64,000 nucleotides of DNA, from NCBI GenBank assembly GCA_963662465.1, contig OY759599.1, positions 1,376,001 to 1,440,000 of the forward strand, given 5' to 3'. The notes below the pieces were generated by a model. That model saw only the letters and a program-made list of their open reading frames with translations, did no database searches and was not told the origin of the DNA. Shown here in pieces: positions 10,002-39,436 of this stretch. Each line of letters opens with the position of its first letter. The first letter of the stretch is position 1. The stretch comes from Desulfatiglandales bacterium (lineage in GTDB: Bacteria > Desulfobacterota > DSM-4660 > Desulfatiglandales > Desulfatiglandaceae). Position numbers and translations under genes: made by a program.

Positions 10002-10123
10002 AACGCCCCAGGGGGCACGTCAATGCATGCGGTCTCGAAACGTTGGAACCAGATTGTGACGGTCACTCCGGGGTTCTTTCACGAGTGCGACAGACAATTC
10101 CACAGCATGAGCTTATCTTCAAA

Positions 10124-10915
10124 ATGATTACATTCGAGCCGATTTGTAACGGAAACTTTTGGTCGGGATCAGATTGGTCGATCACCGACGAGGATGAATT
10201 GGCTGCGCTGATTGCACGCGTAGCCCTCGGGCAATATCGTCATGTCTTGAAAGTTCTGAATGAGACCGACTGCATCGCTTACGCACCTACCCAGAGTGCG
10301 TTGGCAGGTGCGATTCAAACGTTGACCGCAAAAGATCCTGAAAAGCCGTATCATCGCGATGGATGGCTTTTTCAGGTGATCTCTTGGATTGCTGCCAACT
10401 TGCAAGATCCCGAAACTCTCAAGTCACCACCTCACATTATCCATGCCGACAAAGGATTTGATGGCCTTCATCTCCGTTTAGATGCGTCCAATGAGAATGT
10501 TGTTTCAGTCATTGTCTGTGAAGAAAAAGCGACAGATGGGCCGCGCGGGAAAATTACCAGCGAGGTCTGGCCGGAATTTAAGTCACTAGAGGCTGGGGAG
10601 CGGGACAATGAGCTGGTCTCCGAGACGACCACACTCTTAGCTCAAAACAGTCACCTAGACCCAGACAGAGCGGTTTACGAAATCCTTTGGAAACAGGCCC
10701 GTGCTTACCGCATCTCGATCACGATCGGGGACAAGAATTGCTCCAATGAGGGCAGGAAGAGTCTGTTCAAAGGGTACAAAAATGTGACACCCGGTGATAA
10801 TGTTGAAAAGAGACGAGCCGAAACTTTCCATCAAAGTAAACTGCGCGCCTGGATGAAGAGAATGGCGGCGAAGGCCATTGAAGCCGCAAGAGACATGGAG
10901 GCTGAGAATGTATGA
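10124..10915 (+). CDS. hamA: Hachiman HamA-like (DUF1837-like) nuclease-fold protein
   Basis: KGFDGLH...CEEKA PD-(D/E)xK-like motif; stop overlaps the start of a large Ski2-like helicase. Confidence 0.65.
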   Translation: MITFEPICNGNFWSGSDWSITDEDELAALIARVALGQYRHVLKVLNETDCIAYAPTQSALAGAIQTLTAKDPEKPYHRDGWLFQVISWIAANLQDPETLKSPPHIIHADKGFDGLHLRLDASNENVVSVIVCEEKATDGPRGKITSEVWPEFKSLEAGERDNELVSETTTLLAQNSHLDPDRAVYEILWKQARAYRISITIGDKNCSNEGRKSLFKGYKNVTPGDNVEKRRAETFHQSKLRAWMKRMAAKAIEAARDMEAENV

Positions 10916-13900: not shown

Positions 13901-14210
13901 CTATTTATTCGGTTTGCCGGCATTGCTCCATGAACGAACGCAGGTGAAAGCGGATGATCCTGTTCCACTTCCCGCCGTCCTCACGCAACTGGGCCGTTGC
14001 GTAAGGTTTGGTTTCGATCTCCATGAGAAAGCGGCTCTCAATCAAATTCTGCGCAAGGCGCGGTTATCGCGCCGTCAGGTTCACCAACACTATGCGTTGG
14101 TTAAGCAGCATTTGGCATCAGCGTCGACAAGCGAAACATGGGAGCAGACGCTCCGAAGAGTCGAGATGGCTTCCGAAAAAGAGCTCAATGCCAAATATTT
14201 TGATGAATAA
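10908..14210 (+). CDS. hamB: DEAD/DEAH-box helicase, Hachiman HamB-like
   Basis: PTGAGKS, DECH, LSA, TSTLAQGMN and GRAGRAG motifs; GGAGG RBS before ATG 10908. Confidence 0.75.
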   Translation: MYDQDTADLIRATPTLEGLDRQSLPDLLTEAFAEIAVARIRLRDFDEENLEALTRLVEKMRRLAYTNEALVSVLPEREDRSSAAFVAATAHQLCFNADSLFKHVSKPTFIGIRTISSDIAAMLLFMVAEATSDASEVSKAMIWQASDPIEEALIASLRDLAKGKLLTLTNRSIPDRETVVSEYPARSAVRALYLAILEGVHVLANQLLFGHLLDDSRNPVSLFRRICELSIGPDQFVSEKWVESPSSAFSGPYHLASLLIAVSKDLSDSAVTKIPAPSGVDPIKWSRSMRRIAKTRPFLWRNHRYAIDQGYLQPGTSAAVGFPTGAGKSTLAELKINNALLAEKNVIFLAPTHALVDQTSQSLRRSFPTASVQRERQDEFGFATGDEDLPEILVMTPESCLTQMSIDTSAFENMGLVVFDECHLLHPSENPNDRRSIDAMLCVLNLSTIAGEADFLLLSAMMRNTNDISGWITELTDRPCLSLNLPWKPTRQLRGSVVYNQQTVTRLQNELTRAKKSATTKYPTAALKKTLNAMPQALFSMKQTWATNNREDYALVDLLDDSVQLAASQYWKLTPNAVAVSSSISAASAVTGVKTLVFFQTIKNAASATKQISDLLGPISIKLNNEEAGWLDTARMEMGGISHLYLAVRNGRVAQQAAVHHGLLLPEERHLCESLYKRADGIKVLTATSTLAQGMNLPSELVIIGEDSRFDQVKDKREILKAQELLNAAGRAGRAGENSSGIVLVVPGKVVGIDLDELTIGAHWTDLREIFGQSDQCLDINDPLTAILDRVHAGTERAREIERYAILRLASGGKGDTETEALSNAIKSSFGAYLARKKKDYSWLKERIDTATAFFKEQSPETERELVQTQIAASLGLSLELVSRLSAALEDRGPGPDSKVPDWKRWFFLWLSENPDLLEQVCRRQSLVELFGRKAYEAFTTDEEKAAYALPILSKLIWCWMKGEPLSEMEKVLGTDPKKLKTCDKARRFALRIVPELSYLFGLPALLHERTQVKADDPVPLPAVLTQLGRCVRFGFDLHEKAALNQILRKARLSRRQVHQHYALVKQHLASASTSETWEQTLRRVEMASEKELNAKYFDE

Positions 14211-14290
14211 GACAGCGGGGGAATGTGAATAAAGAAGGGGGCTAAATAAATAAGTTGACATGATTAGGCTCGAATTCATAGTTCCGGATT

Positions 14291-14671
14291 ATGCCACGAT
14301 TAAGCCCATTTAGTGAGCCCGGTATTCTGCACCACGTGATCATAAGGGGCATTGAGCGTAGACGAATATTCAGGGACAGCAAAGACCTGGATGATTTTTT
14401 AACGCGTTTTGGGGACCTCATTCCCGAGACAAGAACTGCCTGTTACGCCTGGGCGCTTTTAACCAACCATGCCCACTTTCTTCTGCGAACCGGAGATTCT
14501 CCTTTGGCAACCTTCATGCGAAGACTTTTGACCGGGTATGTGGGGCAGTTTAATCGCCGACACAAGCGATATGGGCCTTTGTTTCAAAACCGTTTCAAGT
14601 CGATTGTGTGTCAAGAAGATGCATACTTGCAGGAAAGGAAAAAGCAACAGTATCGAAACTTTTTTGAATGA
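14291..14671 (+). pseudogene. RAYT/Y1 HUH transposase, 3' truncated
   Basis: HHVIIRGIERRRIF, NHAH and LFQNRFKS present; sequence ends before the catalytic YxHLNP motif. Confidence 0.85.
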
Positions 14672-14773
14672 CCCGCTCTATGGTATAGACATTCGGGAAA
14701 AGCCAAGCAGTAATGTAGACTGGTCAGAGTACCTCGGCTAACCAAACAAAAAATATGGAGACACATAATATCA

Positions 14774-15076
14774 ATGGACTTCAAGAGTTTGGCAAGAATC
14801 TGCGCAGAGGCGGAAATGAACCACATGATAAATGGAAAATCAGGAGAGCCTGTGGTCCGGGTCGGTGTTACCGGAGACCGGACAAAGGAAACGCGCGTAC
14901 ACATATTAACAGCACCCGAAGGTCATTCGGTCCTGATGGGAAAACCGGTCAAATATGTCAAACTGCATGACCTGACAATCGTGGATATCGTATGCCGCGA
15001 TATCAGAGCGTTTTACAGCAGCAGGAACTGGATCTTGGAAGAATTTATCGATGAAAAACCAAAGGTGCTGCACTGA
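14774..15076 (+). CDS. Hypothetical protein
   Basis: 100-aa ORF, no recognised motif. Confidence 0.45.
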   Translation: MDFKSLARICAEAEMNHMINGKSGEPVVRVGVTGDRTKETRVHILTAPEGHSVLMGKPVKYVKLHDLTIVDIVCRDIRAFYSSRNWILEEFIDEKPKVLH

Positions 15077-15193
15077 CATTTGGCAGCCGGGAAGCACGTC
15101 TGCCTTTAGCTGTTGTTGGCGATTCAAAAATATCTAATTTATGCCACAAGAGAACATTCAGGCATTTTATTAACAGCGTAGAAAAGGAGACAC

Positions 15194-15805
15194 ATGGTTA
15201 AACAGAACAATCCTAAAACAATGTCAGTCCCCAGTGGTCCGGAACCAAACGCGTACCAAATCCAAATGCCGGTGCCACACCCAACACAGGCGCAGCGCGA
15301 TTACGTCTTCGAACACCTCTTTAAAGACGGTCCCACGCGTATGGCAACCGAAGTTTTTCCTGGTTCTCAGATCATCGTCGATAAACACACCTTCGCACGC
15401 AGAGGAAAACCGCCTGACGGCGAGAGCCCAGATCCAAAAGTCCAAACCGCGCCTACCATCTTTTCTCTCAACGATCTGGCGCTTCTCTACGCGTGGGTGA
15501 CCTTCAACGGCTATATTCCGCACGATCAGCGCTCGATCATGATTCGACACAAAGGTATTTCCGAGTGGGATCAGGCTGCGGTCGCGATAGCCGAAACACC
15601 GGACGGCACAACCCACATCCTTTACGCAAAAGCGTTCGAGCACTTCCCCATCAGCGATGATCCGTGCATATCCGACGTATCGTTGCTCGCCGTGGATCTC
15701 TCGGACGTCGAGGCGTTTTTTAAGATAACAGGCAACATCAACCGACTGTGGAGAACCCAATACAAAGTCTGGCACATGGCAACAACCTGGACCGGCCGGG
15801 TATAA
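15194..15805 (+). CDS. Hypothetical protein
   Basis: 203-aa ORF with a clear AAGGAG RBS. Confidence 0.6.
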   Translation: MVKQNNPKTMSVPSGPEPNAYQIQMPVPHPTQAQRDYVFEHLFKDGPTRMATEVFPGSQIIVDKHTFARRGKPPDGESPDPKVQTAPTIFSLNDLALLYAWVTFNGYIPHDQRSIMIRHKGISEWDQAAVAIAETPDGTTHILYAKAFEHFPISDDPCISDVSLLAVDLSDVEAFFKITGNINRLWRTQYKVWHMATTWTGRV

Positions 15806-15925
15806 ATGCCCTGGTGGTTCAAATACTCTCTGCCTGTTTAAATGTCCGAAGACAATCGAAAGGGGGGGGTGGCCAGGGTGTAGCAAGCGGAGGAATTTAG
15901 AATCCACAACGGCTTTAAACCCATT

Positions 15926-18900
15926 ATGCTCAACAAAAAACATAAATCCAATAAAACCGACCCGGCTCACTGTAAGCACCTGAAAGATAAAGCCCGGGAC
16001 ATGACCGGCTGCGAAATCCTAAAGAGTGCCCAAGGTCTTTATGACGCCTGGCGGCAGGAAAACCTAGAAACCATTTTGGATCGCTCCGCTGAAACCGTTC
16101 ACGCTATCCTGGCCGGTCTCAAGATGTTGGGTTTGGACCCTGATCACCTGTTTGCCCGCATGGCCACAGTGGTCAAATCCCCGAATGGCTGCCATTCAAA
16201 CCAACGGGCAAGGATTTCTGAGGATGCTATTCCGGGGATGCGAGATGCGCCGTCTTTCCTGTTCACGCCGAATAACGCAGCGCAGATGGTGGATCTGATT
16301 AAGAAGGAGATGATTGCAAGCGACAGGGTCTGGGTCGCCTCCGCCTTCTACTCTCCGGGAGTCATCAACCTGCTGATCTCCAGTTTTACCCGCTTTACAG
16401 AAACCGGGGGGGAACTCAAAGTCCTTACTTCCACCATGGGCAACTTCAACAGACCCGACTACCTGGTACATCTCCGAGATACCGTGCCGGGTATCCGGGT
16501 AAGGGTTTACCACCCCCGGAACATTCCGTTTGATAAAGCCCCTCCCCCCTTCCACCCGAAGGCCTGGCTGTTTCGCCACCGGGATGGAACGGGGGCTATC
16601 CTGATTGGCTCATCTAATTTTACGGAGGCAGGTTTTTTGAAGAATGTGGAGTGGAATTATTTTTCCGCCGGTGAAGTGAACATCCACTTTGAACAAACAT
16701 CCCCCTTTGAAGACGCTATTTCCGAATTCACGCGGCACTGGGACCTTGAGTCCGTCGAGATTTCCGACGAGTTTCTCTCAGCCTACCGAAACAGGTGGCA
16801 GATGCCGTACGATAGGCGGCAGGACGTTTTCGATCCTCCCGCTGAGAACTGGTCAACGGCGTCTGGAGGGGTAAACCCGAGCGAAACGGCGGTGACACCC
16901 AATCCGGCTCAAATCGAAGCCCTCGTTAGCCTTTCCCGCATGAGAGGACAGGGGATCAAAAAGGCCTCCGTTATCGCGGCCACGGGTGTGGGCAAAACCC
17001 ATTTGGCGGCCTTTGATTACAAGGAGAGCGGGCTCGAAAATATGCTGTTCATCGCACATCGGGAAAACATTCTACTGAAAGCCAGGGAGACATTTCAGAG
17101 CGTCCTGAAGGATGATGTTTTCGGGGAACTCCTGGGGGCAGGCCGGGAAGTCCAAAACGGCTCCGGGGCCGTCTTTGCCATGATCCAGACCCTCAGCCGG
17201 CCGGAACAGCTGGAAAGATTTTCGCCGGATCATTTTGAGTACCTGGTGGTTGACGAGTTTCACCACGGCATGGCGCCCACCTATCTGAAAGCCATTGATT
17301 ATTTCAAACCCCGGTTCATGCTGTGCTTAACAGCCACCCCCGAGCGCATGGACGGCAGGGATGTGCTGCGCCTGTGCGATTACAATGTAGCCTATGAAGT
17401 GCGGTTGCTCGACGCCGTGGACAGGGGGTGGCTCTGCCCCTTTCAATACTTTGCCGTCTATGACGAAACCGACTACCGGCAGATCGCCTGGCGCGGCGCC
17501 CACTACGACGATGAAGAATTGACAAAAGCACTCAGCAGTGACACCCGCACGGCCATTGTTTCCGCCAACCTCAAAAAATACCTTCCCAGTACCGGTAAAA
17601 CGAAGGCACTGGCCTTCTGCAGCTCCGTATCCCATGCGCGATATACGGCGGAAAGGTTGACCCTTGATCACGGCATCGAGTCCCTGGCGCTTTCGGGGAG
17701 TGACCCCGGGGATATAAGAACCGCGGCACTGGCCCGTCTTGAGAACGAAAACGATCCCCTCCGGGTACTCTGCACCGTGAACATTTTCAATGAGGGTGTG
17801 GATATTCCGGGCCTGACCCATGTGCTTTTTCTGCGGCCCACCCAGTCCTTTACGGTTTTTCTTCAGCAGCTGGGACGGGGTCTTCGAAACGCACCGGGGA
17901 AGGAATACCTGGTGGTCATCGATTTCGTGGGCAATTTCAAAAAGGCCCATGTAGCGCCCCTGGCCTTGAGCGGTTATACATCCGTTCAGGAATTTGTGGT
18001 GGATGGTGTTGCGGCGTTTAGGAGTGACGGTTCCGGTTTTACGCTTCCCAAGGGCTGTTTTCTGGATACGGATCTGGATGTCAAACGTATCTGGGACCGC
18101 GAGATACGCAATATCCTTGATGGAAATATTTCGGTTGAGGAAAGACTTAGAGCCCTTTACGCCGATATCCGGTCAGATCTGGATGGCACGTCTCCGTTTC
18201 TCACGGATTTTCTCGACAATGCATTCCGTATGGATCCCTATGTGTTTATCAGGCATTTCGGGAGCTGGTTGAGGACAAAACTTGAATGTGAAGGGCATCT
18301 CGATCCAAAGGAACAAGCCCTGCTGGATACCCCGGGTGAAGCGTTCCTCGGTCATTTGGAATCAGGCCTGAGCCCGGTAAAATCCTATAAGATGGTGGTG
18401 CTGACGTGTCTCCTGGAAATGAAAGAAACCATTTGGGATGTGGAGGCGATTGCAACCGCATTTCGTGGGTTCTTCCTTGTGCATCGGGACAAGCTCTTTG
18501 ATTATGACGACTTGGCAGGTTCCAAGGATCCCGAGGATTTTCCCATCTCGAAGGTTACGACAAAACTGCTCCAGATGCCGCTCAAATATCTGAGCAACAC
18601 GGATACGGACTGGTTCATCCTGGACAAGAACCGGGGGACGTTTGCCTTAAAGCCGGAAGTGGTCCCTTACTGGAATGATCCCTTTTTCAGGGAACTGGTG
18701 GCGGACCGGGTGAAATTCGCCATGGTGCGGTATTTCTCCCGAAAAGCCCGTATTGCCAAGGTGTTGTTCAGCGAAGATATTTTTAAAAGTGGTTTCCCGG
18801 TCGATCGTGATTTTGCTCTTGATTTTTACGCGGAAAGACCGCTGAAAACCGGTGAAAGCCGGAAAGTGAAGCTGAAGGTCAACGGTGGAATCTATGCCGT

Positions 18901-19108
18901 CTCTTTCCAGCGTGCCGCATCAGGGAGGGAGTACAAAATCGGGTACGAACCGGAAAACGAAGTTATCCAGGCATTCAGGGAATATCTGGGGAACCGGTTC
19001 AAGTCGGGTGAAACGGCGTTTACCCTGAAGGTTTCAGGGAAGCATGATCTGGCCGTGGAGGCGTTTCTTGAATGCGTTGACATGGGCGGGAGAGTGAGAA
19101 AACCATAG
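15926..19108 (+). CDS. PLD-nuclease plus SF2 (Res-like) DEAD/DEAH helicase
   Basis: FHPKAW...GSSNFT, ATGVGKT, DEFHH, LTATPERMDG, QQLGRGLR and C-terminal SYKMVVL; start uncertain. Confidence 0.85.
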   Translation: MLNKKHKSNKTDPAHCKHLKDKARDMTGCEILKSAQGLYDAWRQENLETILDRSAETVHAILAGLKMLGLDPDHLFARMATVVKSPNGCHSNQRARISEDAIPGMRDAPSFLFTPNNAAQMVDLIKKEMIASDRVWVASAFYSPGVINLLISSFTRFTETGGELKVLTSTMGNFNRPDYLVHLRDTVPGIRVRVYHPRNIPFDKAPPPFHPKAWLFRHRDGTGAILIGSSNFTEAGFLKNVEWNYFSAGEVNIHFEQTSPFEDAISEFTRHWDLESVEISDEFLSAYRNRWQMPYDRRQDVFDPPAENWSTASGGVNPSETAVTPNPAQIEALVSLSRMRGQGIKKASVIAATGVGKTHLAAFDYKESGLENMLFIAHRENILLKARETFQSVLKDDVFGELLGAGREVQNGSGAVFAMIQTLSRPEQLERFSPDHFEYLVVDEFHHGMAPTYLKAIDYFKPRFMLCLTATPERMDGRDVLRLCDYNVAYEVRLLDAVDRGWLCPFQYFAVYDETDYRQIAWRGAHYDDEELTKALSSDTRTAIVSANLKKYLPSTGKTKALAFCSSVSHARYTAERLTLDHGIESLALSGSDPGDIRTAALARLENENDPLRVLCTVNIFNEGVDIPGLTHVLFLRPTQSFTVFLQQLGRGLRNAPGKEYLVVIDFVGNFKKAHVAPLALSGYTSVQEFVVDGVAAFRSDGSGFTLPKGCFLDTDLDVKRIWDREIRNILDGNISVEERLRALYADIRSDLDGTSPFLTDFLDNAFRMDPYVFIRHFGSWLRTKLECEGHLDPKEQALLDTPGEAFLGHLESGLSPVKSYKMVVLTCLLEMKETIWDVEAIATAFRGFFLVHRDKLFDYDDLAGSKDPEDFPISKVTTKLLQMPLKYLSNTDTDWFILDKNRGTFALKPEVVPYWNDPFFRELVADRVKFAMVRYFSRKARIAKVLFSEDIFKSGFPVDRDFALDFYAERPLKTGESRKVKLKVNGGIYAVSFQRAASGREYKIGYEPENEVIQAFREYLGNRFKSGETAFTLKVSGKHDLAVEAFLECVDMGGRVRKP

Positions 19109-19124
19109 AGAACGGGTGGGCGGT

Positions 19125-19712
19125 ATGACCGATTATTACCAGAAAAATTATCTTGCGTACCACGATCAGACCTTCAGTATCGACCCCGCATCTTTTCTTT
19201 CACCGCTGGTGCGCGCTATGGCTCCCCGCGGCAGCATCCTGGATGTGGGGTGCGGTTCCGGGCGCGATATGCGGTGGCTGAAAGACCGGGGGTTCCGGCC
19301 CACGGGTTTTGAGCGGTCAAGCGGCCTGGCCGCACTGGCGAGGGAGCATTCAGGGTGTTCGGTTCTGGAAGGGGATTTTGAGGCTTATGATTTTTCGGGT
19401 ATGGACGTGGATGCGATCCTGCTGGTGGGGGCACTGGTGCATGTGCCGCACGAGCGGTTTTCGAAAATACTTTCAAATATTGCTCAGGCGTTGAACCCCG
19501 AAGGCCATGTGCTACTCACCCTGAAAGAAGGGGTGAAGACCCGGGCCGCTGCCGGGGGTCGGGTGTTTTACCTCTGGGAGGATGGGGCGCTCAGTGCCGT
19601 TTTTGAGCCGCTTAACCTCACAGTGGTGGATTTTTCCCGGCAGATTTCTAAAGTCAGAAAGAGCGATGTGTGGTTGGGGTATGTGTTGAAGAAACAGGGC
19701 TTCGCGGATTAA
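19125..19712 (+). CDS. Class I SAM-dependent methyltransferase
   Basis: ILDVGCGSGRD motif I; paralog of 34427-35005. Confidence 0.88.
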   Translation: MTDYYQKNYLAYHDQTFSIDPASFLSPLVRAMAPRGSILDVGCGSGRDMRWLKDRGFRPTGFERSSGLAALAREHSGCSVLEGDFEAYDFSGMDVDAILLVGALVHVPHERFSKILSNIAQALNPEGHVLLTLKEGVKTRAAAGGRVFYLWEDGALSAVFEPLNLTVVDFSRQISKVRKSDVWLGYVLKKQGFAD

Positions 19713-19747
19713 CGTGAAATAGAGCATTTTGTTGTTCCCCCGGGCTG

Positions 19748-19771
19748 GTTCCCACGCAGAGCATGGGAACG
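19748..19771 (+). repeat. REP-like hairpin forming the intron 5' exon end
   Basis: GTTCCCA-CGCAGAGCA-TGGGAAC-G; a partial second copy GTTCCCACGCAGAG lies at 35085-35098. Confidence 0.75.
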
Positions 19772-21674
19772 GTGCGCCTGTGAAGGCGCTTTATCAGTGC
19801 GGTGAAAGTCCGTACCGGAGTATGCCATAGCTCCGTAGCCGAAGGTAACTGCGTCGCCGCGAGGCGGGGTGGAGAGCAACCGGAGGCGAAAAGTCAGTCC
19901 GTAGGATGACGAACCCGATTCGGTGTCATGTGGTGGCGAGCCTACCGTTCCATGGTGAAGCCTGAAACTCACAGACCACGCTGTAATGGCGGTTAAAGCG
20001 ATGGTTTGACGGCATGGTATGTTTGGGGTCGGAATGACTGGAAGGTAAAGCGAGATAAGCAGGGAGACCTGTCTCTTGGGGTGACAGGAGGCAGGAGTCA
20101 GAGTCCTCATAGTACCGTAGCGACAGAACGGTCCTGCTAACAAGGCTTACGGCGTGAGACCAGTACCCGCCGCCTGCGTCGGATACCGGGTTGTGAAAAG
20201 CGCGGATAGCAAAACCGTGCCGAGGGAAGGAGGATAGGAAGATAGATACGGAAAGGTCATATAGATGCAGCTAAATCAAGCAGTCTCGGCAGTGTTGGAA
20301 ACAACTAAACGCGAGGCAGAAACCCGATGGGATTGGGTGGAAGCATCGGTGTGGACGGAACGTATGTTGGCAGCCCTGGGTAACGGGGTGAAAGGTGGTA
20401 AATGGTACAGTTTGATGGATAAGGTGTTCGCCTTGTCGACGCTGGAAGCGGCTTGGGGACGTGTCAAAGCCAATAAAGGAGCGGCAGGGATAGACCGTAT
20501 CAGCATAAAGCGCTTTAAGGAGCAGGCGGAGAAATACCTTGCCGAACTGCATGAAACCTTGAAAGCGGGAACGTACCGACCGGAAGCGGTAAAACGGGTA
20601 TACATTCCGAAAAGCGACGGCAAACAACGCCCGCTGGGGATACCCACGGTCAAAGACCGGGTAGTGCAGGCAGCGGTTAAAATGGTTATGGAGCCCATAT
20701 TCGAGCATGAATTTCTGCCGATGAGTTACGGCTTCAGGCCGCAAAGAGGTTGCAAGGACGCGTTGCGAGAAGTAGACGCGCTTATTAAGGAAGGCTACAC
20801 CTTCATACTGGACGCCGACCTGAAAAGTTACTTTGATACGATTCCGCACGATAAGCTGATGCAACAAGTCGAAATGCGCATCAGCGACGGCAAATTGCTC
20901 AATCTGATTCAAATGTTCCTGAAACAGGACGTGATGGACGGCTTGGAAAGATGGACACCGACGGGTGGTTCGCCACAAGGGGCGGTAGTCAGCCCCTTGC
21001 TTGCGAATATTTACCTGCATCCTCTTGACAGCCTGATCGCGGAATCAGGTATGCGGATGGTGCGTTACGCGGACGACTTTGTTATCCTCAGCCGCAGTCA
21101 AACGGAAGCGGAGAATGCTTTGCAAAAGGTACGGGAGTGGGTACAGGCTAATGACCTGAGCTTACACCCGGACAAGACGCATCTTGGCGACTGTCGACAA
21201 AAGGGTCAGGGATTTGAATTCCTGGGATACCGGTTTGAGGCAGGAAAGCGCTGGATACGCAGTAAAAGCCGTAAAGCCCTTCGTGATAAAATCCGGGAAG
21301 AGACCCGGCGCAAACGTAGCGGAAGTATGGAAAGCATCATTGATGATCTGAACCCCATGCTTGAAGGCTGGTTTGGTTACTTCAAACACGCCTACCGCAC
21401 TGAGTTTGCGGCGGTGGATAAGTTTGTCCGCCGACGCTTACGCGCCGTATTATTGCGTCGTAACAAACGCAAGGGCTGGGGCAAAAGCCTTGAAGCCCAC
21501 CGCCGCTGGCCGAATGCCTACTTCGCGAAAATCGGGCTTTTCACTATGCATGAGGCCCGGTTAGCAGCGTGCCGATCCCGATGAGGAAACTATCGACCGG
21601 AGAGCCGTGTGCGGGAGAACCGCATGCACGGTTCGGAGGGAGGGGAGAGCCAAGAGGCTCTTTCCTACCCCTAT
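19772..21674 (+). mobile_element. Group II intron, copy 1 (1903 bp)
   Basis: 5' GTGCG, domain V GAGAGCCGTGTGCGGGAGAACCGCATGCACGGTTC, domain VI and 3' end CCCTAT; internal RT ORF. Confidence 0.95.
20265..21584 (+). CDS. ltrA: Group II intron reverse transcriptase/maturase without endonuclease domain
   Basis: GAAGID, RPLGIPTVKDR, PQGAVVSPLLANIYL, YADD and GWFGYF; no HNH tail. Confidence 0.95.
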   Translation: MQLNQAVSAVLETTKREAETRWDWVEASVWTERMLAALGNGVKGGKWYSLMDKVFALSTLEAAWGRVKANKGAAGIDRISIKRFKEQAEKYLAELHETLKAGTYRPEAVKRVYIPKSDGKQRPLGIPTVKDRVVQAAVKMVMEPIFEHEFLPMSYGFRPQRGCKDALREVDALIKEGYTFILDADLKSYFDTIPHDKLMQQVEMRISDGKLLNLIQMFLKQDVMDGLERWTPTGGSPQGAVVSPLLANIYLHPLDSLIAESGMRMVRYADDFVILSRSQTEAENALQKVREWVQANDLSLHPDKTHLGDCRQKGQGFEFLGYRFEAGKRWIRSKSRKALRDKIREETRRKRSGSMESIIDDLNPMLEGWFGYFKHAYRTEFAAVDKFVRRRLRAVLLRRNKRKGWGKSLEAHRRWPNAYFAKIGLFTMHEARLAACRSR

Positions 21675-23577
21675 GTGCGCCTGTGAAGGCGCTTTATCAG
21701 TGCGGTGAAAGTCCGTACCGGAGTATGCCATAGCTCCGTAGCCGAAGGTAACTGCGTCGCCGCGAGGCGGGGTGGAGAGCAACCGGAGGCGAAAAGTCAG
21801 TCCGTAGGATGACGAACCCGATTCGGTGTCATGTGGTGGCGAGCCTACCGTTCCATGGTGAAGCCTGAAACTCACAGACCACGCTGTAATGGCGGTTAAA
21901 GCGATGGTTTGACGGCATGGTATGTTTGGGGTCGGAATGACTGGAAGGTAAAGCGAGATAAGCAGGGAGACCTGTCTCTTGGGGTGACAGGAGGCAGGAG
22001 TCAGAGTCCTCATAGTACCGTAGCGACAGAACGGTCCTGCTAACAAGGCTTACGGCGTGAGACCAGTACCCGCCGCCTGCGTCGGATACCGGGTTGTGAA
22101 AAGCGCGGATAGCAAAACCGTGCCGAGGGAAGGAGGATAGGAAGATAGATACGGAAAGGTCATATAGATGCAGCTAAATCAAGCAGTCTCGGCAGTGTTG
22201 GAAACAACTAAACGCGAGGCAGAAACCCGATGGGATTGGGTGGAAGCATCGGTGTGGACGGAACGTATGTTGGCAGCCCTGGGTAACGGGGTGAAAGGTG
22301 GTAAATGGTACAGTTTGATGGATAAGGTGTTCGCCTTGTCGACGCTGGAAGCGGCTTGGGGACGTGTCAAAGCCAATAAAGGAGCGGCAGGGATAGACCG
22401 TATCAGCATAAAGCGCTTTAAGGAGCAGGCGGAGAAATACCTTGCCGAACTGCATGAAACCTTGAAAGCGGGAACGTACCGACCGGAAGCGGTAAAACGG
22501 GTATACATTCCGAAAAGCGACGGCAAACAACGCCCGCTGGGGATACCCACGGTCAAAGACCGGGTAGTGCAGGCAGCGGTTAAAATGGTTATGGAGCCCA
22601 TATTCGAGCATGAATTTCTGCCGATGAGTTACGGCTTCAGGCCGCAAAGAGGTTGCAAGGACGCGTTGCGAGAAGTAGACGCGCTTATTAAGGAAGGCTA
22701 CACCTTCATACTGGACGCCGACCTGAAAAGTTACTTTGATACGATTCCGCACGATAAGCTGATGCAACAAGTCGAAATGCGCATCAGCGACGGCAAATTG
22801 CTCAATCTGATTCAAATGTTCCTGAAACAGGACGTGATGGACGGCTTGGAAAGATGGACACCGACGGGTGGTTCGCCACAAGGGGCGGTAGTCAGCCCCT
22901 TGCTTGCGAATATTTACCTGCATCCTCTTGACAGCCTGATCGCGGAATCAGGTATGCGGATGGTGCGTTACGCGGACGACTTTGTTATCCTCAGCCGCAG
23001 TCAAACGGAAGCGGAGAATGCTTTGCAAAAGGTACGGGAGTGGGTACAGGCTAATGACCTGAGCTTACACCCGGACAAGACGCATCTTGGCGACTGTCGA
23101 CAAAAGGGTCAGGGATTTGAATTCCTGGGATACCGGTTTGAGGCAGGAAAGCGCTGGATACGCAGTAAAAGCCGTAAAGCCCTTCGTGATAAAATCCGGG
23201 AAGAGACCCGGCGCAAACGTAGCGGAAGTATGGAAAGCATCATTGATGATCTGAACCCCATGCTCGAAGGCTGGTTTGGTTACTTCAAACACGCCTACCG
23301 CACTGAGTTTGCGGCGGTGGATAAGTTTGTCCGCCGACGCTTACGCGCCGTATTATTGCGTCGTAACAAACGCAAGGGCTGGGGCAAAAGCCTTGAAGCC
23401 CACCGCCGCTGGCCGAATGCCTACTTCGCGAAAATCGGGCTTTTCACTATGCATGAGGCCCGGTTAGCAGCGTGCCGATCCCGATGAGGAAACTATCGAC
23501 CGGAGAGCCGTGTGCGGGAGAACCGCATGCACGGTTCGGAGGGAGGGGAGAGCCAAGAGGCTCTTTCCTACCCCTAT
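21675..23577 (+). mobile_element. Group II intron, copy 2 (1903 bp), directly abutting copy 1
   Basis: Junction CCCTAT|GTGCG; one synonymous difference seen (21362 T versus 23265 C). Confidence 0.95.
22168..23487 (+). CDS. ltrA: Group II intron reverse transcriptase/maturase, copy 2
   Basis: Protein identical to 20265-21584. Confidence 0.95.
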   Translation: MQLNQAVSAVLETTKREAETRWDWVEASVWTERMLAALGNGVKGGKWYSLMDKVFALSTLEAAWGRVKANKGAAGIDRISIKRFKEQAEKYLAELHETLKAGTYRPEAVKRVYIPKSDGKQRPLGIPTVKDRVVQAAVKMVMEPIFEHEFLPMSYGFRPQRGCKDALREVDALIKEGYTFILDADLKSYFDTIPHDKLMQQVEMRISDGKLLNLIQMFLKQDVMDGLERWTPTGGSPQGAVVSPLLANIYLHPLDSLIAESGMRMVRYADDFVILSRSQTEAENALQKVREWVQANDLSLHPDKTHLGDCRQKGQGFEFLGYRFEAGKRWIRSKSRKALRDKIREETRRKRSGSMESIIDDLNPMLEGWFGYFKHAYRTEFAAVDKFVRRRLRAVLLRRNKRKGWGKSLEAHRRWPNAYFAKIGLFTMHEARLAACRSR

Positions 23578-23757
23578 AGTGCGAACGCGAAGTCAGCACC
23601 GATTTTCACGTTAATCCGCGATGAACCAAAATATTTTACTCATCGACGATCTATTTCGTTCAGGCGCCACGCTCAAAGTTGCCACTCAAATAATGCTCGA
23701 AAAAGCAAATGCCAAAAAAGTATGTGTATTAACAATGACAAAAACTAGGATAAACCG

Positions 23758-25220: not shown

Positions 25221-25636
25221 TGTGTGAAGCGGCCAGAGGGGCAACTTCACAAATAATAGGAGGAAAAGATTGTCCTGAACAATGTCAAATTCATGTGTTA
25301 TGTATATAATACATGAGGCTTGCAAAATTGATGAAAAATGATGCTGTTAAGCGGTAAATAATATACAGCTCCATCCTTTGACTATATTATTACGCCTCAT
25401 AAAAGTGAATAGGGAGGCGTTATGGAGCAATTTGAAACACGGTTCAAACGAGTTGATGTATTCCCAATGGTCAAACATTTTATTAGGGTGGTTTTTTGGA
25501 TTAACTAATTGATTAAATTTAGTTTTTCCTGGTCCGACCCCAGACCAACCAACAGATTATTTCGTATTGACAAAGGCACCATTGTGACGTACATTTATGC
25601 CGCGTGTTGATAAAAAAAACTCAGGGAAACTTTACC

Positions 25637-25924
25637 ATGGATGCAGCAACTCAAAATAGAAACGAGCGGATCAACCTCCGTGTGAAAAGCAGCGCAAAGC
25701 GCCTCTTAACGCGTGCAGCCGATTTTGAGGGCAAGACCGTCAGTCATTTTATACTGACCAGTGCCTTGAAGTGTGCAGAGGAAACCGTCCAAGAGCATCA
25801 GATGATGACGTTGAATACAGAAAATTCAAGGGCCTTTTTCGATGCGCTGGCCGCTCCGGTGCGTTTTAATCGCAAATTGATCACAGCTCTTGAAGAATAT
25901 GATAAGCGCGTCATCAGCAAATGA
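25637..25924 (+). CDS. DUF1778 (RHH) antitoxin
   Basis: RNERINLRV..AADFEGKTVSHFIL..FFDALAAP; ATGA overlap with GNAT gene. Confidence 0.88.
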   Translation: MDAATQNRNERINLRVKSSAKRLLTRAADFEGKTVSHFILTSALKCAEETVQEHQMMTLNTENSRAFFDALAAPVRFNRKLITALEEYDKRVISK

Positions 25925-26463
25925 CGAATTTCCGGAATCTGGTCATAGCACCGCTGAACGCCGCTCATGACAGAGTCGGTTTCCGCTGTAATGTAGAAGC
26001 ATTGGATCAGTATATTCATAAGCAGGCAGGGCAGGATATCAGACGCCGCATCAGTCGTATTTTTGTTGCAGCGCTGCCGGACAACCCCAAAGAGGTAATG
26101 GGTTATTACAGCCTGAGCACATTATCCATTGAACTGAGGCAATTGCCGGAAAAGCTGGCCAGGAAGTTGCCGAAGCATCCAGTTCCCGCTGCTCTGATTG
26201 GCAGACTGGCAGTCAGTAAAAATGCCCAGGGATTTGGCATCGGCAAAATGCTGCTGGTAGATGCTATTCAGCGAACCCTGTCGGTCAGTGACCAGATCGC
26301 CATCTATGCCATTGTTGTTGATGCCATTAACGACAACGCCAAAGGCTTTTATGAGCAATTCGGGTTTGCCCGCTTAAGCGATGACAGTCCAAGACTGTTT
26401 CTGCCTTTAAAATCTTTTGTAAACAACCCAGTACCCATTAACCCAATACCCAGTGTCTATTAA
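25921..26463 (+). CDS. GNAT acetyltransferase toxin
   Basis: ALIGRLAVSKNAQGFGIGKMLLVDA, VDAINDNAKGFYEQFGF. Confidence 0.9.
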   Translation: MTNFRNLVIAPLNAAHDRVGFRCNVEALDQYIHKQAGQDIRRRISRIFVAALPDNPKEVMGYYSLSTLSIELRQLPEKLARKLPKHPVPAALIGRLAVSKNAQGFGIGKMLLVDAIQRTLSVSDQIAIYAIVVDAINDNAKGFYEQFGFARLSDDSPRLFLPLKSFVNNPVPINPIPSVY

Positions 26464-26570
26464 CACGTCCTTCAGATCACACCGATTGCCCAGAATTCAG
26501 CATCCAGCATCCAGCATTCAGAAAAAGCTATTTATTTTTTTATGGATGTCCCCTATTGCGTTGTAAATGG

Positions 26571-26832
26571 GGCTACGGCCACAAGCCGGGACAAAATGTT
26601 TGAACACGATTTAAAAGATTATAATGATGGACAGGATTACCATTGGCCGATAAAATGCAAACAAAATGGTGTAAAGGGGGGAAGGAACTTGTTTGGACGC
26701 TGTCTTTTAATCCTGTCCATCTAAGAAATCCTGTTCATCGTGTTCAAAACAATGAGGATGCCCACAGTGACTGATAACCCTAAAATCAAGGTTCAAACGA
26801 ATGAGAAACTGTCCCGCCTTACGTCGGTAGCC
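26571..26832. mobile_element. MITE-like family 2, copy 1 (other copies 29594-29896, 39437-39698)
   Basis: Imperfect 23-bp terminal IR GGCTAC...GGGACA / TGTCCC...GTAGCC; long internal interrupted palindrome. Confidence 0.75.
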
Positions 26833-26973
26833 GATTATAAGTTAATACATCATTCATTGCATGATATTGAGCAAACATACCACGCAAAACTCGTATGGAG
26901 TAGCACAGAAGGCTGCCAATTGTAGGGAAAGAACCGAAGGCCTTTTGGAAATTTATAATCTGACGAACGTCCC
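26833..26973. mobile_element. MITE-like family 1, left end clipped
   Basis: Matches 55262-55416; ends in AATTTATAATCTGACGAACGTCCC. Confidence 0.8.
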
Positions 26974-27108
26974 TGCCCCCCCTGCAAAGTTATTGAGATT
27001 GTCCGGTTTTAGCGTACTTGAATCTGGGTAAAAGGAAAGCGAGAGGAAATCCCTGAAAGGTTACCATGGATGCGATAAAATCAGAATTTCAGTTTGTCAA
27101 AGTGACCG

Positions 27109-27339
27109 GTGGCATTAATCCTCAGCGAACTGATTGAGAAAAAAATCCGATTCCCCAACGCTGAGGACATGGTCAGTTCAATTGACATCATCACCGACTA
27201 TTACGATGTGTCGGATGAACTGCTTCATGAGAATTCCGAATTCAAATCGTACCTGAAAGAACTGAGTACGGCAAAGGGTGATTTCAGCGAAGAAAGAATC
27301 CGAAAATTCTTCTCAGCCTTTGAACAGGCTGGTGTTTAG
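27109..27339 (+). pseudogene. Fragment of an unknown gene present four times
   Basis: MVSSIDIITDYYDVSDELLHEN.. also at 39975-40205, about 42267-42437 and about 47015-47170. Confidence 0.65.
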
Positions 27340-27429
27340 TTTGGGCAATGGAGACATTATGTTGAGAGGGAAAATGTCGAGAATCGGAATGAATAATCCG
27401 GTAAATGAAGTCTGAAAAGGACGGTCGCG

Positions 27430-28327
27430 ATGATAACAGACGCCGATAGGTTATTAAACACCCTGAATCGACTTCTGTCCCTGCCGAGAGAAAACGCATG
27501 GTATGGGGCGTGGACAACAGGACCCATTCCGTTTTGGGAACAACCTTCGCCCCCTTTGCGACAAAGGGGGCGGGCAGGCAACCGCTCATCATGTGGCTTA
27601 CGCAATTGATCTCCCCCAGACCGGATTTTCAGTTTCATGAAGTCGCGCATCCGGGTGGCCGGGTGGTGATGCTTGAAATTCATCCACCGCGTAGTGTGCC
27701 ACTGGCTTTCAAGGGCGTTCGCTATATCCGTATCGACAGCCATAAATCAAGGCTTTCCGAGCACCCTGCCAGAGAGGCCCGGCTATGGAAAGCGCTTGGA
27801 GGTGCCGAAGACTGGTCCGGGCATACCGTGCCCGAGGCTACGCTGAACGATCTGGACCCGGAGGCCATCGCGTTTGCCAGGGTTAATTTGGTGAATATCT
27901 TGTCAAGAGTGAGACCGATAGTGGCCGCCACGAAAAAATCCTGGCCGATGTTCACGCATGGGAACCATTGACGCTCCTAAATAAAGCCCGCATCACGAAA
28001 CAGGGCCATATAACCCATGCCGCGCTGTTGCTGCTTGGCCGTGATGAAGCGGCACATTTCCTGGCCCCTGCTGATGTCAAAATCAGTTGGATTCTTCATG
28101 ATGGAACAAACCGGCCCATCGGTGGACAACATTTCAGTCTGCCACTGCTCTTGGCCCCCAATGCGCTTTTCAAGCGGATCAGAAAAATAACGCTCGAATA
28201 TATGCCGGACGGCACTCTGTTTCCAACCCCAATATCTCAATATGACCCATGGGTTATCCGAGAGGCATTGCACAACTGTATTGCGCATCAGGATTACCAT
28301 TTGGCAGGAAAAATCAACGTTGGTTGA
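27430..28327 (+). pseudogene. AlbA_2/HATPase_c_4 ATP-binding protein, frameshifted and truncated
   Basis: VWGVDNRTH and IREALHNCIAHQDY; frameshift near 27884 relative to the copy at 40364. Confidence 0.75.
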
Positions 28328-31883: not shown

Positions 31884-32611
31884 GTTTTCTCGATGAATTC
31901 AGTGCCACGGGCGCCGTCATTATAAAGCCAAAGGTTTTGAATGCTCAGGCCATTGTCAATTCAAACGCATATTTCGGAAAACTGTTTCGTGACAGGGGCC
32001 TTGATGCACAAGCATTGCAAAACTGGATCGAAAACAGTGGTGAATCTGATTTCCTTGAATTCTGCGTATTTCTCGGTCTCAGTCCCAGCGAAACCCGGGG
32101 ACTCCTCGACGACATTCGAAATTTGGACGGAACCCTGAAAAACGGCCGGTGGAAACCTGCACTTCTGGGTTTTGGAAAAATTGCCGCACCCGGATATGGT
32201 CCCGCAAAGGGACTTCAAACCCTTTCACAATGGCGTGATTATGCCGGTGCAACAAGGCGTGCATTACTCCCCCAAGCCAAAGAGCGGGCAGCGGAAAATA
32301 ACCGTGATGCGCTCTCCATCGACGACTGGTTTTCCTGGGCCGAACTCCCGGAGGCCAAAGGCTGGGAAATTCTCCCCGGCCCGGCGCTGACCGATGAGAG
32401 CAGGTTTTCTGAATACCTGGAAGGATTTATGGCGGAGCACGATGCCAGAGAAAGAAACGACCGGGCGTCCTTTCAAAGACTCCTGACGGACTATATCGGG
32501 GTTTCAGAAGACGGTCGGTTGCGTGAAAAAAAGGAGCGCAGCTGCCTCAGAGCGGTGATGCTGGGTTATCTCAAGACCAATGAAGTCATCAGGAGGACTG
32601 GGAAGACGTGA
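31880..32611 (+). CDS. Hypothetical protein or fragment
   Basis: GTGA overlap with neighbours; 3' end joins the acidic-protein repeat. Confidence 0.4.
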   Translation: MSFLDEFSATGAVIIKPKVLNAQAIVNSNAYFGKLFRDRGLDAQALQNWIENSGESDFLEFCVFLGLSPSETRGLLDDIRNLDGTLKNGRWKPALLGFGKIAAPGYGPAKGLQTLSQWRDYAGATRRALLPQAKERAAENNRDALSIDDWFSWAELPEAKGWEILPGPALTDESRFSEYLEGFMAEHDARERNDRASFQRLLTDYIGVSEDGRLREKKERSCLRAVMLGYLKTNEVIRRTGKT

Positions 32612-32928: not shown

Positions 32929-32973
32929 AGGATCGAGATCCATGACTGCGCTCCTGATCCTTTTGCTGCCGTC

Positions 32974-39336: not shown

Positions 39337-39436
39337 CACGTCCTTCAGATCACACCGATTGCCCAGAATTCAGCATCCAGCATTCAGAAAAAGCTATTTA
39401 TTTTTTTATGGATGTCCCCTATTGCGTTGTAAATGG

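What the first reader, a model, noticed from the sequence alone, without database searches (positions are those of the whole stretch)
19748..19951. Intron appears to home to a REP-like hairpin although its domain V is not IIC-like
Seen: the insertion is at the base of GTTCCCACGCAGAGCATGGGAACG|AG; the exon end GGAACG (19766-19771) is complementary to CGTTCC (19946-19951) in intron domain I; domain V has an AGC triad and full length; the RT lacks an endonuclease. Known: hairpin-adjacent targeting is typical of class IIC introns (terminators, attC). Inference: a non-IIC lineage using a multicopy REP family as safe landing sites.
Basis: partly seen in the sequence, partly recalled or inferred. Interest (0 to 1): 0.72.

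Follow-up and report, generated by a model that had tools for sequence, protein, structure and literature searches.

The report
Hairpin-homing group II intron, IIC sister lineage
A self-splicing mobile intron has copied itself about a dozen times into one repeated DNA hairpin of this bacterium, using a six-base loop that pairs with the hairpin's foot, and it belongs to a little-described sister branch of the introns already known to target hairpins.

Summary
A 1,903-nt group II intron (two head-to-tail copies, 19772-21674 and 21675-23577) starts 1 nt after the hairpin GTTCCCACGCAGAGCATGGGAAC (19748-19770). CGTTCC (19946-19951) is EBS1: the same loop covaries with the last 5-6 exon bases in 25 of 33 relatives against 3% of mismatched pairs.

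The genome holds 13 copies at 12 independent sites, 11 of them after this hairpin. The hairpin family has about 66 loci, 21 of them within 260 nt of an ISL3-type end repeat, the window's among them.

Among 32 sites with hairpin plus AACG|AG, 9 are occupied. Eight of those 9, but only 4 of 23 empty ones, lie on the lagging-strand template (p=3.6e-4).

"Non-IIC" is half right:
- Domain V is IIB/F-like (AGC, 33 nt) and EBS1 is long.
- The RT clade is sister to labelled class C plus g6 (96/98).
- Domain I matches only the IIC model, weakly, and no EBS2 signal was found.
- 33 of 44 distinct 5' exons in the clade carry a perfect stem next to the junction, against 5 of 191 controls.

So hairpin targeting here is most likely shared with IIC. 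This is a new variant of a known kind. Toro varieties g2, g4 and g5 could not be tested. Earlier notes of this scan reported other intron families at attC sites elsewhere in this genome, not this one.

The parts
19704..19719 (+). Left terminal inverted repeat (GCGGATTAACGTGAAA) of the short ISL3-type element that carries the target hairpin. It overlaps the stop codon of the methyltransferase gene 19116-19712.
   Evidence: The 16-mer has 100 hits at up to 2 mismatches genome-wide. The same ends bound a 1.4-kb element encoding a DDE_Tnp_ISL3 transposase. Flank listing.
19748..19770 (+). Target hairpin GTTCCCACGCAGAGCATGGGAAC, one member of a family of about 66 loci.
19766..19771 (+). IBS1 (GGAACG): the last six bases of the 5' exon. 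Five of them are the foot of the hairpin's 3' arm.
   Evidence: Exact complement of 19946-19951. Occupancy depends on G at -1: 8 of 28 GGGAACG|AG sites are occupied against 0 of 20 with C or A at -1.
19772..21674 (+). Group II intron, copy 1 (1,903 nt; 5' GTGCG ... CCTAT 3').
19946..19951 (+). EBS1 (CGTTCC), in the terminal loop of a short domain I hairpin (GCCU[ACCGUUCCA]UGGU).
   Evidence: Rfam RF02001 alignment. The loop covaries with the exon end in relatives.
20265..21584 (+). Intron-encoded reverse transcriptase/maturase, 439 aa, YADD motif, no endonuclease domain.
   Evidence: Pfam RVT_1 1.5e-41 and GIIM 6.4e-18. Best solved relatives are IIC RTs: 6ar1 at 222.6 bits.
21602..21634 (+). 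Domain V, 33 nt, AGC triad, distal part GCGGGAGAACCGC.
   Evidence: RF00029, 62.4 bits. Compared with labelled class C and F introns.
21635..21674 (+). Domain VI with a bulged A seven bases before the 3' end, then the 3' end ...CCCCUAU.
   Evidence: RNA fold of 21600-21674.
21675..23577 (+). Group II intron, copy 2, joined head-to-tail to copy 1 with no exon base between. It differs from copy 1 by one base (T/C at intron position 1591).
23578..23619 (+). 3' exon (AGTGCGAACG...), which is the right part of the same short element and ends in the right terminal repeat TTTCACGTTAATCCGC (23604-23619).

Best explanation
This is the 5' junction of an active, recently expanded group II intron that works like a class C (IIC) intron while keeping some IIB-like parts.

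Proposed mechanism:
1. The intron ribonucleoprotein finds a DNA stem-loop on single-stranded DNA, chiefly the lagging-strand template at a replication fork.
2. Its EBS1 loop (CGUUCC) pairs with GGAACG, which is the foot of the hairpin's 3' arm plus one more base.
3. The RNA reverse-splices in right behind that G.
4. Because the protein has no endonuclease, a nascent DNA strand at the fork primes the cDNA copy.

The target hairpin is a pre-existing repeat of the genus, partly carried by small ISL3-type transposon relics. It therefore offers many harmless landing sites between genes.

The head-to-tail pair in the window most likely arose when a second copy inserted at the already occupied hairpin. 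That would mean the 5' exon side (hairpin plus IBS1) is enough and the first 3' exon base is not strictly read.

Shown here: the junctions, the EBS1-IBS1 pairing and its covariation, the hairpin association across the clade, the dependence on the -1 base, the strand bias, and the phylogenetic position.

Inferred: recognition of the hairpin as a structure, single-stranded DNA as the substrate, priming by the fork, and the origin of the tandem pair.
For: 1. Copies and sites. The genome has 13 full-length copies at 99.1-100% identity. Eleven of the 12 independent sites follow GTTCCCACGCnGAGCrTGGGAA(C/T)G, and the 3' exon starts AG. The flanks are unrelated beyond about 100 nt in all but one pair, and that pair shares only the short element.
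2. EBS1. In 41 aligned relatives the loop between GGCGAGCCUGC and GGCGAAGCC changes together with the exon end, for example TCATGG/CCATGA, CTTTCC/GGAAAG, GACCG/CGGTC and GTAGG/CCTAC. Twenty-five of 33 distinct intron/exon pairs have at least 5 contiguous pairs counted from -1, against 3.1% of 1,036 mismatched combinations. In a 5-mer scan, 32 of 40 match at intron position 175, against 6%.
3. Hairpins across the clade. Thirty-three of 44 distinct 5' exons have a perfect stem of at least 6 bp ending 0-9 nt (mostly 1-4) from the junction, against 5 of 191 control windows. Mean folding energy of the last 35 nt is -8.5 against -3.4 kcal/mol. Stem sequences differ between genomes.
4. No EBS2. No domain I window covaries with exon -22 to -6; the best is 9 of 40 against a 10% background.
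5. Natural variants. GGGAACG|AG sites are occupied 8 of 28 times, GGGAAC(C/A)|AG sites 0 of 20 (Fisher p=0.014).
6. Strand. The cumulative GC-skew minimum is at 5.76 Mb, next to a DnaA-like gene at 5,768,458; the maximum is at 1.78 Mb. Among sequence-competent sites, 8 of 9 occupied but 4 of 23 empty ones have the target strand as lagging-strand template (p=3.6e-4). Counting all 12 independent sites gives 10 of 12.
7. The hairpin is older than the intron. It is found without the intron in 7 of 10 same-genus genomes, and the intron was found in none of the 20 relatives searched.
8. Kinship with IIC.
- The best solved relatives of the RT are IIC RTs.
- The clade (33 rows, 100/99) is sister to labelled class C plus g6 plus Bacillota terminator-type introns (12 rows, 100/99), with the joint node at 96/98.
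- Labelled F, g1, E and D fall outside.
- Only RF02001, the model hit by labelled class C at 71-136 bits, matches the clade's domain I: 34.9, 29.3 and 27.8 bits.
Against: - IBS1 lies inside the stem. EBS1 pairing needs the lower five base pairs opened, so hairpin and pairing partly exclude each other. How both are read was not tested.
- Imperfect matches. Eight of 33 relatives show fewer than 5 contiguous EBS1-IBS1 pairs: L009, L075, L012, L021, L026, L028, L035 and L046. For L021 the script pulled the wrong loop; by eye it pairs over 5 bp. Eleven of 44 exons lack a perfect 6-bp stem.
- One copy in this genome (2,868,022, minus strand) sits at an unrelated site...GCGAATG|AATG.
- Two of 12 sites are on the other strand with respect to replication.
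- The -1 and +1 comparisons are not independent trials. Many sites are copies of one element, and the 26 GGGAACG sites followed by another dinucleotide are mostly the opposite strand of the palindrome, so loop orientation is confounded with +1.
- EBS3 could not be placed. The best covarying column fits 30 of 33 relatives (by my count from the listing, wobble allowed) but not the window intron, which has G opposite A.
- The tandem junction rests on the assembly alone; no public contig spans it.
- Published varieties g2, g4 and g5 and the A.v.I2 branch of class C were not in the tree.
Confidence: 0.8

Rival explanations
1. Plain sequence homing. The intron behaves like a IIB-type retrohoming intron that reads a long target sequence which happens to be a repeat, and the hairpin shape is incidental.
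For: EBS1-IBS1 is 6 bp, the IIA/IIB length given in PMC1702495 (passages). IBS1 lies within the stem. All hairpin sites in this genome share sequence as well as shape.
Against: Across the clade the exon sequences are unrelated, yet 33 of 44 carry a stem next to the junction against 5 of 191 controls. No EBS2-type covariation was found. In one metagenome-assembled genome, three of four copies follow stems that differ by paired changes but share the GGAATC end (L023-L025).
Confidence: 0.1
2. A lineage unrelated to IIC acquired hairpin targeting on its own, by convergence.
For: Domain V is F/IIB-like rather than CGC and short. EBS1 is 5-6 bp. There is no T-run after the stems. The clade lies outside labelled class C plus g6. 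No Rfam D1-D4 model reaches its gathering score for the window intron.
Against: The clade is the sister of class C plus g6 with 96/98 support, and both sides target hairpins. Only the IIC domain I model matches, and one member passes its threshold at 34.9 bits. One origin of the trait is the simpler account.
Confidence: 0.12
3. The copies were spread passively, by transposition of the ISL3-type elements or by segmental duplication, not by intron mobility.
For: Four of 12 sites lie near ISL3-type ends. Two copies share about 100 nt of upstream and 50 nt of downstream flank.
Against: Eight of 12 sites are not in such elements. All other flank pairs are unrelated. The strand bias of occupied against empty sites is not expected from transposition of the carrier.
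Confidence: 0.03

Closest known systems
Class C (IIC) group II introns, e.g. B.h.I1, O.i.I1 and GsI-IIC, which insert after transcription terminators
   Same: - No endonuclease domain.
- Insertion just behind a DNA stem-loop.
- No EBS2-type pairing found.
- The 3' part of the exon is read by EBS1.
- Intergenic landing sites and many copies per genome.
- The RT is closest to solved IIC RTs.
- Domain I resembles only RF02001.
   Different: - The RT clade is sister to, not inside, labelled class C plus g6.
- Domain V has AGC and a near-standard 33 nt, against CGC and a short distal stem (PMC1702495 passages).
- EBS1-IBS1 is 5-6 bp against the 3-4 bp stated there.
- Insertion is 1-4 nt behind GC-rich stems without a T-run, against 3-11 nt and T-runs.
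- IBS1 overlaps the foot of the stem.
IIC-attC introns (S.ma.I2 lineage) that insert at integron attC hairpins
   Same: They target a repeated, non-terminator DNA hairpin that belongs to another mobile system.
   Different: The target here is not an attC. The flanking inverted repeat is the end of an ISL3-family element, and its roughly 100 copies are scattered round the genome rather than in a cassette array. No S.ma.I2 reference sequence was compared.
Class F introns (Ni.ha.I1 and an R. tropici plasmid intron, as labelled in PMC3552965 Table S2 and PMC7306698 Table S1)
   Same: Size (about 1.9 kb, ORF about 440 aa), no endonuclease, and nearly the same domain V (GCGGGAAAUCCGC against GCGGGAGAACCGC).
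   Different: RT identity is only 37-38%. These introns lie outside the C-plus-this-clade node. Their domain I hits RF02003 at 99-102 bits, which this clade does not hit.
RmInt1 and other class D introns without endonuclease
   Same: A similar strand bias is recalled for RmInt1 (not read here). [quoted passage not shown]
   Different: RT identity is 33%. They served as outgroup in the trees. Their domain I hits RF01999. They are described as homing to a specific sequence with EBS1 and EBS2.
Insertion sequences and a group II intron associated with REP elements in Pseudomonas putida KT2440 (Tobes and Pareja 2006, PMC1525189)
   Same: A mobile element that uses a multicopy extragenic palindrome as its landing site.
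   Different: That table lists only 2 of 9 intron copies as REP-associated (one table passage seen). Here it is 11 of 12, with a matching EBS1.

Membership tests
Group II intron (any class) | 5' GUGYG, domains V and VI with a bulged A, and an RT/maturase ORF in domain IV | tested here: met
   GTGCG at 19772. RF00029 at 62.4 bits for 21600-21674. The domain VI fold shows a bulged A. RVT_1 plus GIIM.
Class C (IEP-based) | The RT falls inside the class C clade | tested here: not met
   Labelled class C (O. anthropi, B. thuringiensis), g6 (D.p.I1) and Bacillota terminator-type introns form one clade at 100/99. The window's clade (33 rows, 100/99) is its sister, with the joint node at 96/98. The A.v.I2 branch was not sampled.
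IIC (RNA-based) | Domain V with a CGC triad and a distal stem 2 bp shorter (PMC1702495, passages) | tested here: not met
   AGC, 33 nt. The labelled class C anchors do show CGC and a short stem. The Bacillaceae terminator-type introns in my sample also have AGC, so the triad alone is not decisive.
IIC (RNA-based) | Domain I of IIC type (Rfam RF02001, which the labelled class C anchors hit at 71-136 bits) | tested here: inconclusive
   Window 27.8 bits against a threshold of 32. L018 34.9, L009 29.3. L001, L020, L048 and L041 gave no hit at E up to 0.05. Ten further clade members gave none at the gathering score. No other D1-D4 family matched.
IIC (RNA-based) | An 11-nt epsilon-prime bulge with conserved AGGAA | tested here: inconclusive
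   A conserved single-stranded stretch, GUGGAGAGCAAC, lies at the aligned place, but AGGAA is absent.
IIC (RNA-based) | No EBS2-IBS2 pairing | tested here: met
   No covariation between the first 260 intron bases and exon -22 to -6: best 9 of 40 against a 10% background. The positive control, EBS1, gave 32 of 40 against 6%.
IIC (RNA-based) | IBS1-EBS1 of only 3-4 bp | tested here: not met
   Six base pairs in the window. At least 5 contiguous pairs in 25 of 33 relatives.
IIC (behaviour) | Insertion just downstream of a DNA stem-loop | tested here: met
   Eleven of 12 sites in this genome. Thirty-three of 44 clade exons against 5 of 191 controls.
IIC (behaviour) | The stem-loop is an intrinsic terminator (followed by a T-run) | tested here: not met
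   Spacers are G, GA, CTA, CCC, GCTC and the like. The Bacillota relatives show TTT runs.
Class F / g3 | The RT groups with Ni.ha.I1, and domain I is of RF02003 type | tested here: not met
   Varieties g2, g4 and g5 had no reachable reference sequence and are not tested. g2 is unlikely because the RT has YADD, whereas g2 is stated to have FADD (PMC3552965).
REP elements (RAYT-associated) | A multicopy extragenic palindrome with a GTAG head, flanking a RAYT gene | tested here: inconclusive
   Multicopy and extragenic: yes. A GTAG head is seen only on the partner hairpin ending GGGAACC, which is never occupied. The genome has 30 Y1_Tnp matches, but the flanks of the eight looked at showed no consistent hairpin pairing.
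ISL3-derived miniature element (MITE) | A short non-coding element bounded by the terminal repeats of an autonomous ISL3 element | tested here: met
   The window hairpin lies between GCGGATTAACGTGAAA (19704-19719) and its inverted copy (23604-23619). The same ends bound a 1.4-kb element with Zn_ribbon_ISL3, HTH_Tnp_ISL3 and DDE_Tnp_ISL3. Twenty-one of 66 hairpin loci lie within 260 nt of such an end. Target-site duplications were not checked.

The most novel reading that the evidence does not exclude
The intron represents an unnamed, class-level lineage found in at least ten phyla among the loci sampled here. It is the sister of class C plus g6. It still has a IIB/F-type domain V and a 5-6 bp EBS1, but already lacks EBS2 and already targets DNA hairpins. 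If so, hairpin targeting arose before the IIC ribozyme was pared down. This lineage would then specialise in GC-rich REP- or MITE-type hairpins on the lagging-strand template rather than in terminators or attC sites.
Probability: 0.4. Interest if true: 0.62.

Novelty: new variant of a known kind. Interest (0 to 1): 0.5.

Why it matters
- The review passages I read state that only class C introns choose targets by DNA shape and that every other lineage homes to a sequence (PMC4424553).
- This clade extends hairpin targeting beyond the labelled class C introns. It gives an intermediate form (long EBS1, standard-type domain V, no EBS2) for asking in what order the IIC peculiarities arose.
- The genome offers a natural experiment. 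It has 32 near-identical candidate sites that differ in strand, in the -1 base and in occupancy. These already point to single-stranded lagging-strand template as the substrate.
- Practically, a 6-bp EBS1 plus a hairpin requirement is a simple, readable targeting rule that could be tested for retargeting.

Tried and rejected
- attC reading. The hairpin is flanked by an inverted repeat containing GATTAAC...GTTAATC, and earlier notes of this scan report a large integron elsewhere in this genome. I rejected this: the repeat has about 100 copies scattered over the chromosome, is shared by several unrelated short elements, and bounds an ISL3 transposase gene.
- RAYT/REP link. Y1_Tnp gave 30 matches. 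The flanks of eight Y1-like genes showed their own conserved ends and no regular pairing with the hairpin.
- EBS3. A column-by-column search gave a candidate that fits 30 of 33 relatives but not the window intron. A delta-delta' type pairing next to EBS1 does not fit either. Left open.
- RNAalifold on a rough MAFFT alignment gave an unreliable domain I fold. I used the Rfam alignment and stem covariation instead.
- First regex for domain V missed many loci; solved with Rfam scans.
- First protein extraction ran through stops; corrected.
- Public runs. Contigs of X1-X3 break at the intron ends. None spans the tandem junction and none joins the exons, so they say nothing on the tandem or on empty alleles.
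- Metagenome contig. One low-depth contig of X4 carries an intron 90-99% alike, behind a hairpin with the same arms and another loop. This is a lead only.
- Scan index. A search by RT sequence found nothing.
- Papers not held: Robart 2007 (PMC1871835) and Simon 2008 (PMC2525955). Their statements reach me only through other papers. Mohr 2018 is known to me only as a citation.
- Records not in the collections: CP000320, DQ363750 and NC_016814.
- Literature searches for group II introns in REP-type repeats gave only the Tobes and Pareja table. PMC10011109 was a false lead, 'Rep' there meaning replicase.
- Class labels. Waldern Table S1 holds none of my named relatives.
Full report
**What is at the coordinates**

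Positions 19748-19770 read GTTCCCACGCAGAGCATGGGAAC, then G19771, then GTGCGCC, the start of a group II intron. The gapped hairpin pattern occurs once in the window, with none expected by chance.

Rfam finds domain V/VI at 21600-21674 and again at 23503-23577, both at 62.4 bits. The repeat finder and BLAST show two copies of 1,903 nt joined head to tail, 19772-21674 and 21675-23577. They differ at one base.

The ORF 20265-21584 (439 aa) has RVT_1 and GIIM and nothing else. GGAACG (19766-19771) and CGTTCC (19946-19951) are exact complements.

**Copies and flanks in the genome**

The window lies in an 8.16-Mb single-contig genome. It holds 13 full-length copies, twelve at 99.9-100% identity and one at 99.1%. 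These make 12 independent sites.

- Eleven sites follow GTTCCCACGCnGAGCrTGGGAA(C/T)G, two of them with a one-base longer loop, and are followed by AG.
- The twelfth, the most diverged copy, follows ...GCGAATG.
- Apart from one pair that shares about 100 nt, the wider flanks are unrelated. The copies therefore arose by separate insertions.

**The target family**

With up to five substitutions there are about 66 hairpin loci. The consensus folds as a 10-bp stem with an AGA loop. Often a second hairpin, GGACGCAGAGCGTCC, lies 7-9 nt upstream.

The window copy sits between GCGGATTAACGTGAAA (19704-19719) and its inverted copy (23604-23619). That 16-mer has 100 hits spread over the chromosome and ends several different short elements. 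It also bounds a 1.4-kb element encoding an ISL3-family transposase.

The window's hairpin is therefore inside a one-hairpin derivative of a roughly 230-bp ISL3-type miniature element. Twenty-one of the 66 loci lie near such an end. I found no tie to a REP-associated transposase.

The hairpin occurs, without the intron, in 7 of 10 genomes of the same genus. The intron was found in none of the 20 relatives searched. The intron is thus a recent arrival using an older repeat.

**Is CGTTCC the EBS1?**

Eighty related loci were fetched. For 41 of them, with RT identity of 49-74%, the 5' ends could be placed and aligned.

- A conserved frame, GGCGAGCCUGC-loop-GGCGAAGCC, holds a loop that changes with the last bases of each intron's own 5' exon.
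- Twenty-five of 33 distinct pairs have at least five contiguous pairs from -1, against 3.1% of 1,036 mismatched combinations. One of the eight failures is a parsing error of mine (L021).
- A blind 5-mer scan picks out the same place: 32 of 40 against 6%.
- The short stem that closes the loop also covaries: GCCU/AGGC, GCCC/GGGC, GCCA/UGGC, GUCU/AGAC.
- The Rfam alignment puts the window's CGUUCC in that terminal loop.

**Is the hairpin part of the rule?**

- Thirty-three of 44 distinct 5' exons of the clade carry a perfect stem of at least 6 bp that ends 0-9 nt from the junction. The distances are 3 nt (14 exons), 4 (7), 2 (5), 1 (3), and 0, 5, 6 and 9 nt (one each). Controls gave 5 of 191.
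- The stems differ in sequence between genomes and lack a T-run, whereas the Bacillota relatives sit in T-runs behind terminators.
- No EBS2-like covariation with exon -22 to -6 was found.
- In this genome, sites ending GGGAACG|AG are occupied 8 of 28 times and those with C or A at -1 are occupied 0 of 20 times. These sites are not independent trials.

**Strand**

The GC-skew minimum at 5.76 Mb coincides with a DnaA-like gene at 5,768,458; the maximum is at 1.78 Mb.

| Sites with hairpin plus AACG\|AG | On lagging-strand template |
|---|---|
| Occupied (9) | 8 |
| Empty (23) | 4 |

Fisher p = 3.6e-4. Put the other way, 8 of 12 competent sites on that strand are filled, against 1 of 20 on the other. 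This fits an endonuclease-less intron that invades single-stranded DNA at the fork and is primed there. The review passages I read describe fork priming; the step itself is inferred here.

**Which lineage?**

- *Published definition.* Toor et al. (passages) define IIC by a CGC triad, a distal domain V stem 2 bp shorter, an AGGAA bulge, a 3-4 bp EBS1, no EBS2, and a stem-loop where IBS2 would be.
- *Labelled anchors.* I took these from Toro and Martinez-Abarca (text parts 1-3, Table S2) and from Waldern et al. Table S1.
- *RT tree.* In a 54-row tree (IQ-TREE, LG+G4), labelled class C, g6 (D.p.I1) and Bacillota terminator-type introns form one clade (100/99). The window's clade of 33 rows (100/99) is its sister (96/98). 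Class F (two anchors), g1, E and D lie outside. An earlier quick tree agreed.
- *Domain I models.* Rfam D1-D4 models map cleanly to the labels: C to RF02001, F to RF02003, E to RF02005, D to RF01999. The window's clade touches only RF02001, and weakly.
- *Domain V.* It is like that of class F, not like labelled class C.

The intron is a mosaic. Its behaviour and domain I lean to IIC, while domain V and EBS1 length lean to IIB. Toro and Nisa-Martinez (passages) name further varieties g2-g5; I could not obtain their sequences, so the published label of this clade remains open.

**The tandem pair**

EBS1 does not match the intron's own 3' end, so insertion behind copy 1 is unlikely. Insertion at the occupied hairpin, where the first 3' base is G instead of A, fits a rule that reads mainly the 5' side.

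A relative in an Armatimonadota genome (L048) is also tandem. There the intron's 3' end resembles its IBS1. Public contigs did not span the window's junction.

**Verdict**

The finding is real and the EBS1 assignment is right. The mechanism is the known IIC-type one: a DNA hairpin plus short pairing on the lagging-strand template.

What is new, within what I could check:
- the clade's position as sister to class C plus g6;
- its IIB-like domain V and 5-6 bp EBS1;
- its preference for GC-rich hairpins without T-runs;
- in this genome, a repeat partly carried by ISL3-type miniature elements.

Four literature searches found only a table listing 2 of 9 intron copies next to REPs in P. putida. The key papers by Robart 2007 and Simon 2008 were not available to me, and Mohr 2018 is known to me only as a citation, so prior description cannot be excluded.

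Noticed in passing
genome-wide; window 19704-19719 and 23604-23619: A 24-nt terminal repeat (GGyTCAyC GCGGATTAACGTGAAA) is shared by a 1.4-kb ISL3-family insertion sequence and by several unrelated short element families. The largest of these carries GTAG-headed hairpins (GTAGGTGCGACTTCAGTCGCAC). The 16-mer has 100 hits at up to 2 mismatches, scattered over the chromosome.
   Followed up: partly
window 3440-19712: The genes upstream of the intron look like a defence island: a DNA methylase (N6_N4_Mtase), an SNF2-type helicase, a DEAD/ResIII helicase, a ResIII-helicase with a PLD domain, and then a small SAM methyltransferase. An Abi_2 gene lies at 92-988. The gene set resembles a DISARM-like system (name recalled, not tested).
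   Followed up: no
window 55488-55557: A lone domain V/VI fragment of a different group II intron (RF00029, 45.6 bits, domain V four bases shorter), with no RT gene next to it. It is preceded by a run of about 20 C (around 55420-55440) and followed by a long perfect palindrome (AAAAAATTCTCATGGCC...GGCCATGAGAATTTTTT).
   Followed up: no
window 25332-28184 vs 38206-41051; 32586-33598 vs 52826-54078: Large near-identical duplications within the window, at spacings of about 12.87 kb and 20.5 kb. They include GNAT, Schlafen/AlbA_2, DUF1848 and B12-binding/DUF2284 genes.
   Followed up: no
window 57345-58349 (genome 1433336-1434349) and three other genome loci: A family of 338-aa proteins with a weak Y1_Tnp match (E about 1e-12). 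Conserved inverted sequences flank each copy (ACGTTCGTCAGATTATAAGTT ... AACTTATAAACTGACGAACGT). This is probably an unusual IS200/IS605-like element.
   Followed up: partly
L048 (Armatimonadota chromosome), locus 978-3570: A relative of the intron is also present as a head-to-tail pair. There the intron's own 3' end (CCCCTAT) can pair with its EBS1 (GTAGG) with one wobble, so it may seed its own tandem arrays.
   Followed up: partly
run X4 (marine metagenome), laid on window 19764-20014: A low-depth contig carries an intron 90-99% alike, behind a hairpin with the same arms (TTCCCACG...CGTGGGAA) but a different loop. This hints that the arms, not the loop, matter.
   Followed up: no
genome 2,868,022-2,869,931 (minus strand): The most diverged intron copy (99.1% identity, with an 11-nt alignment gap) sits at an unrelated site, ...GGTCATGCGAATG|AATG. 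It has a 5-bp IBS1-like match with one wobble and only a weak distant stem. This is probably an ectopic insertion.
   Followed up: partly
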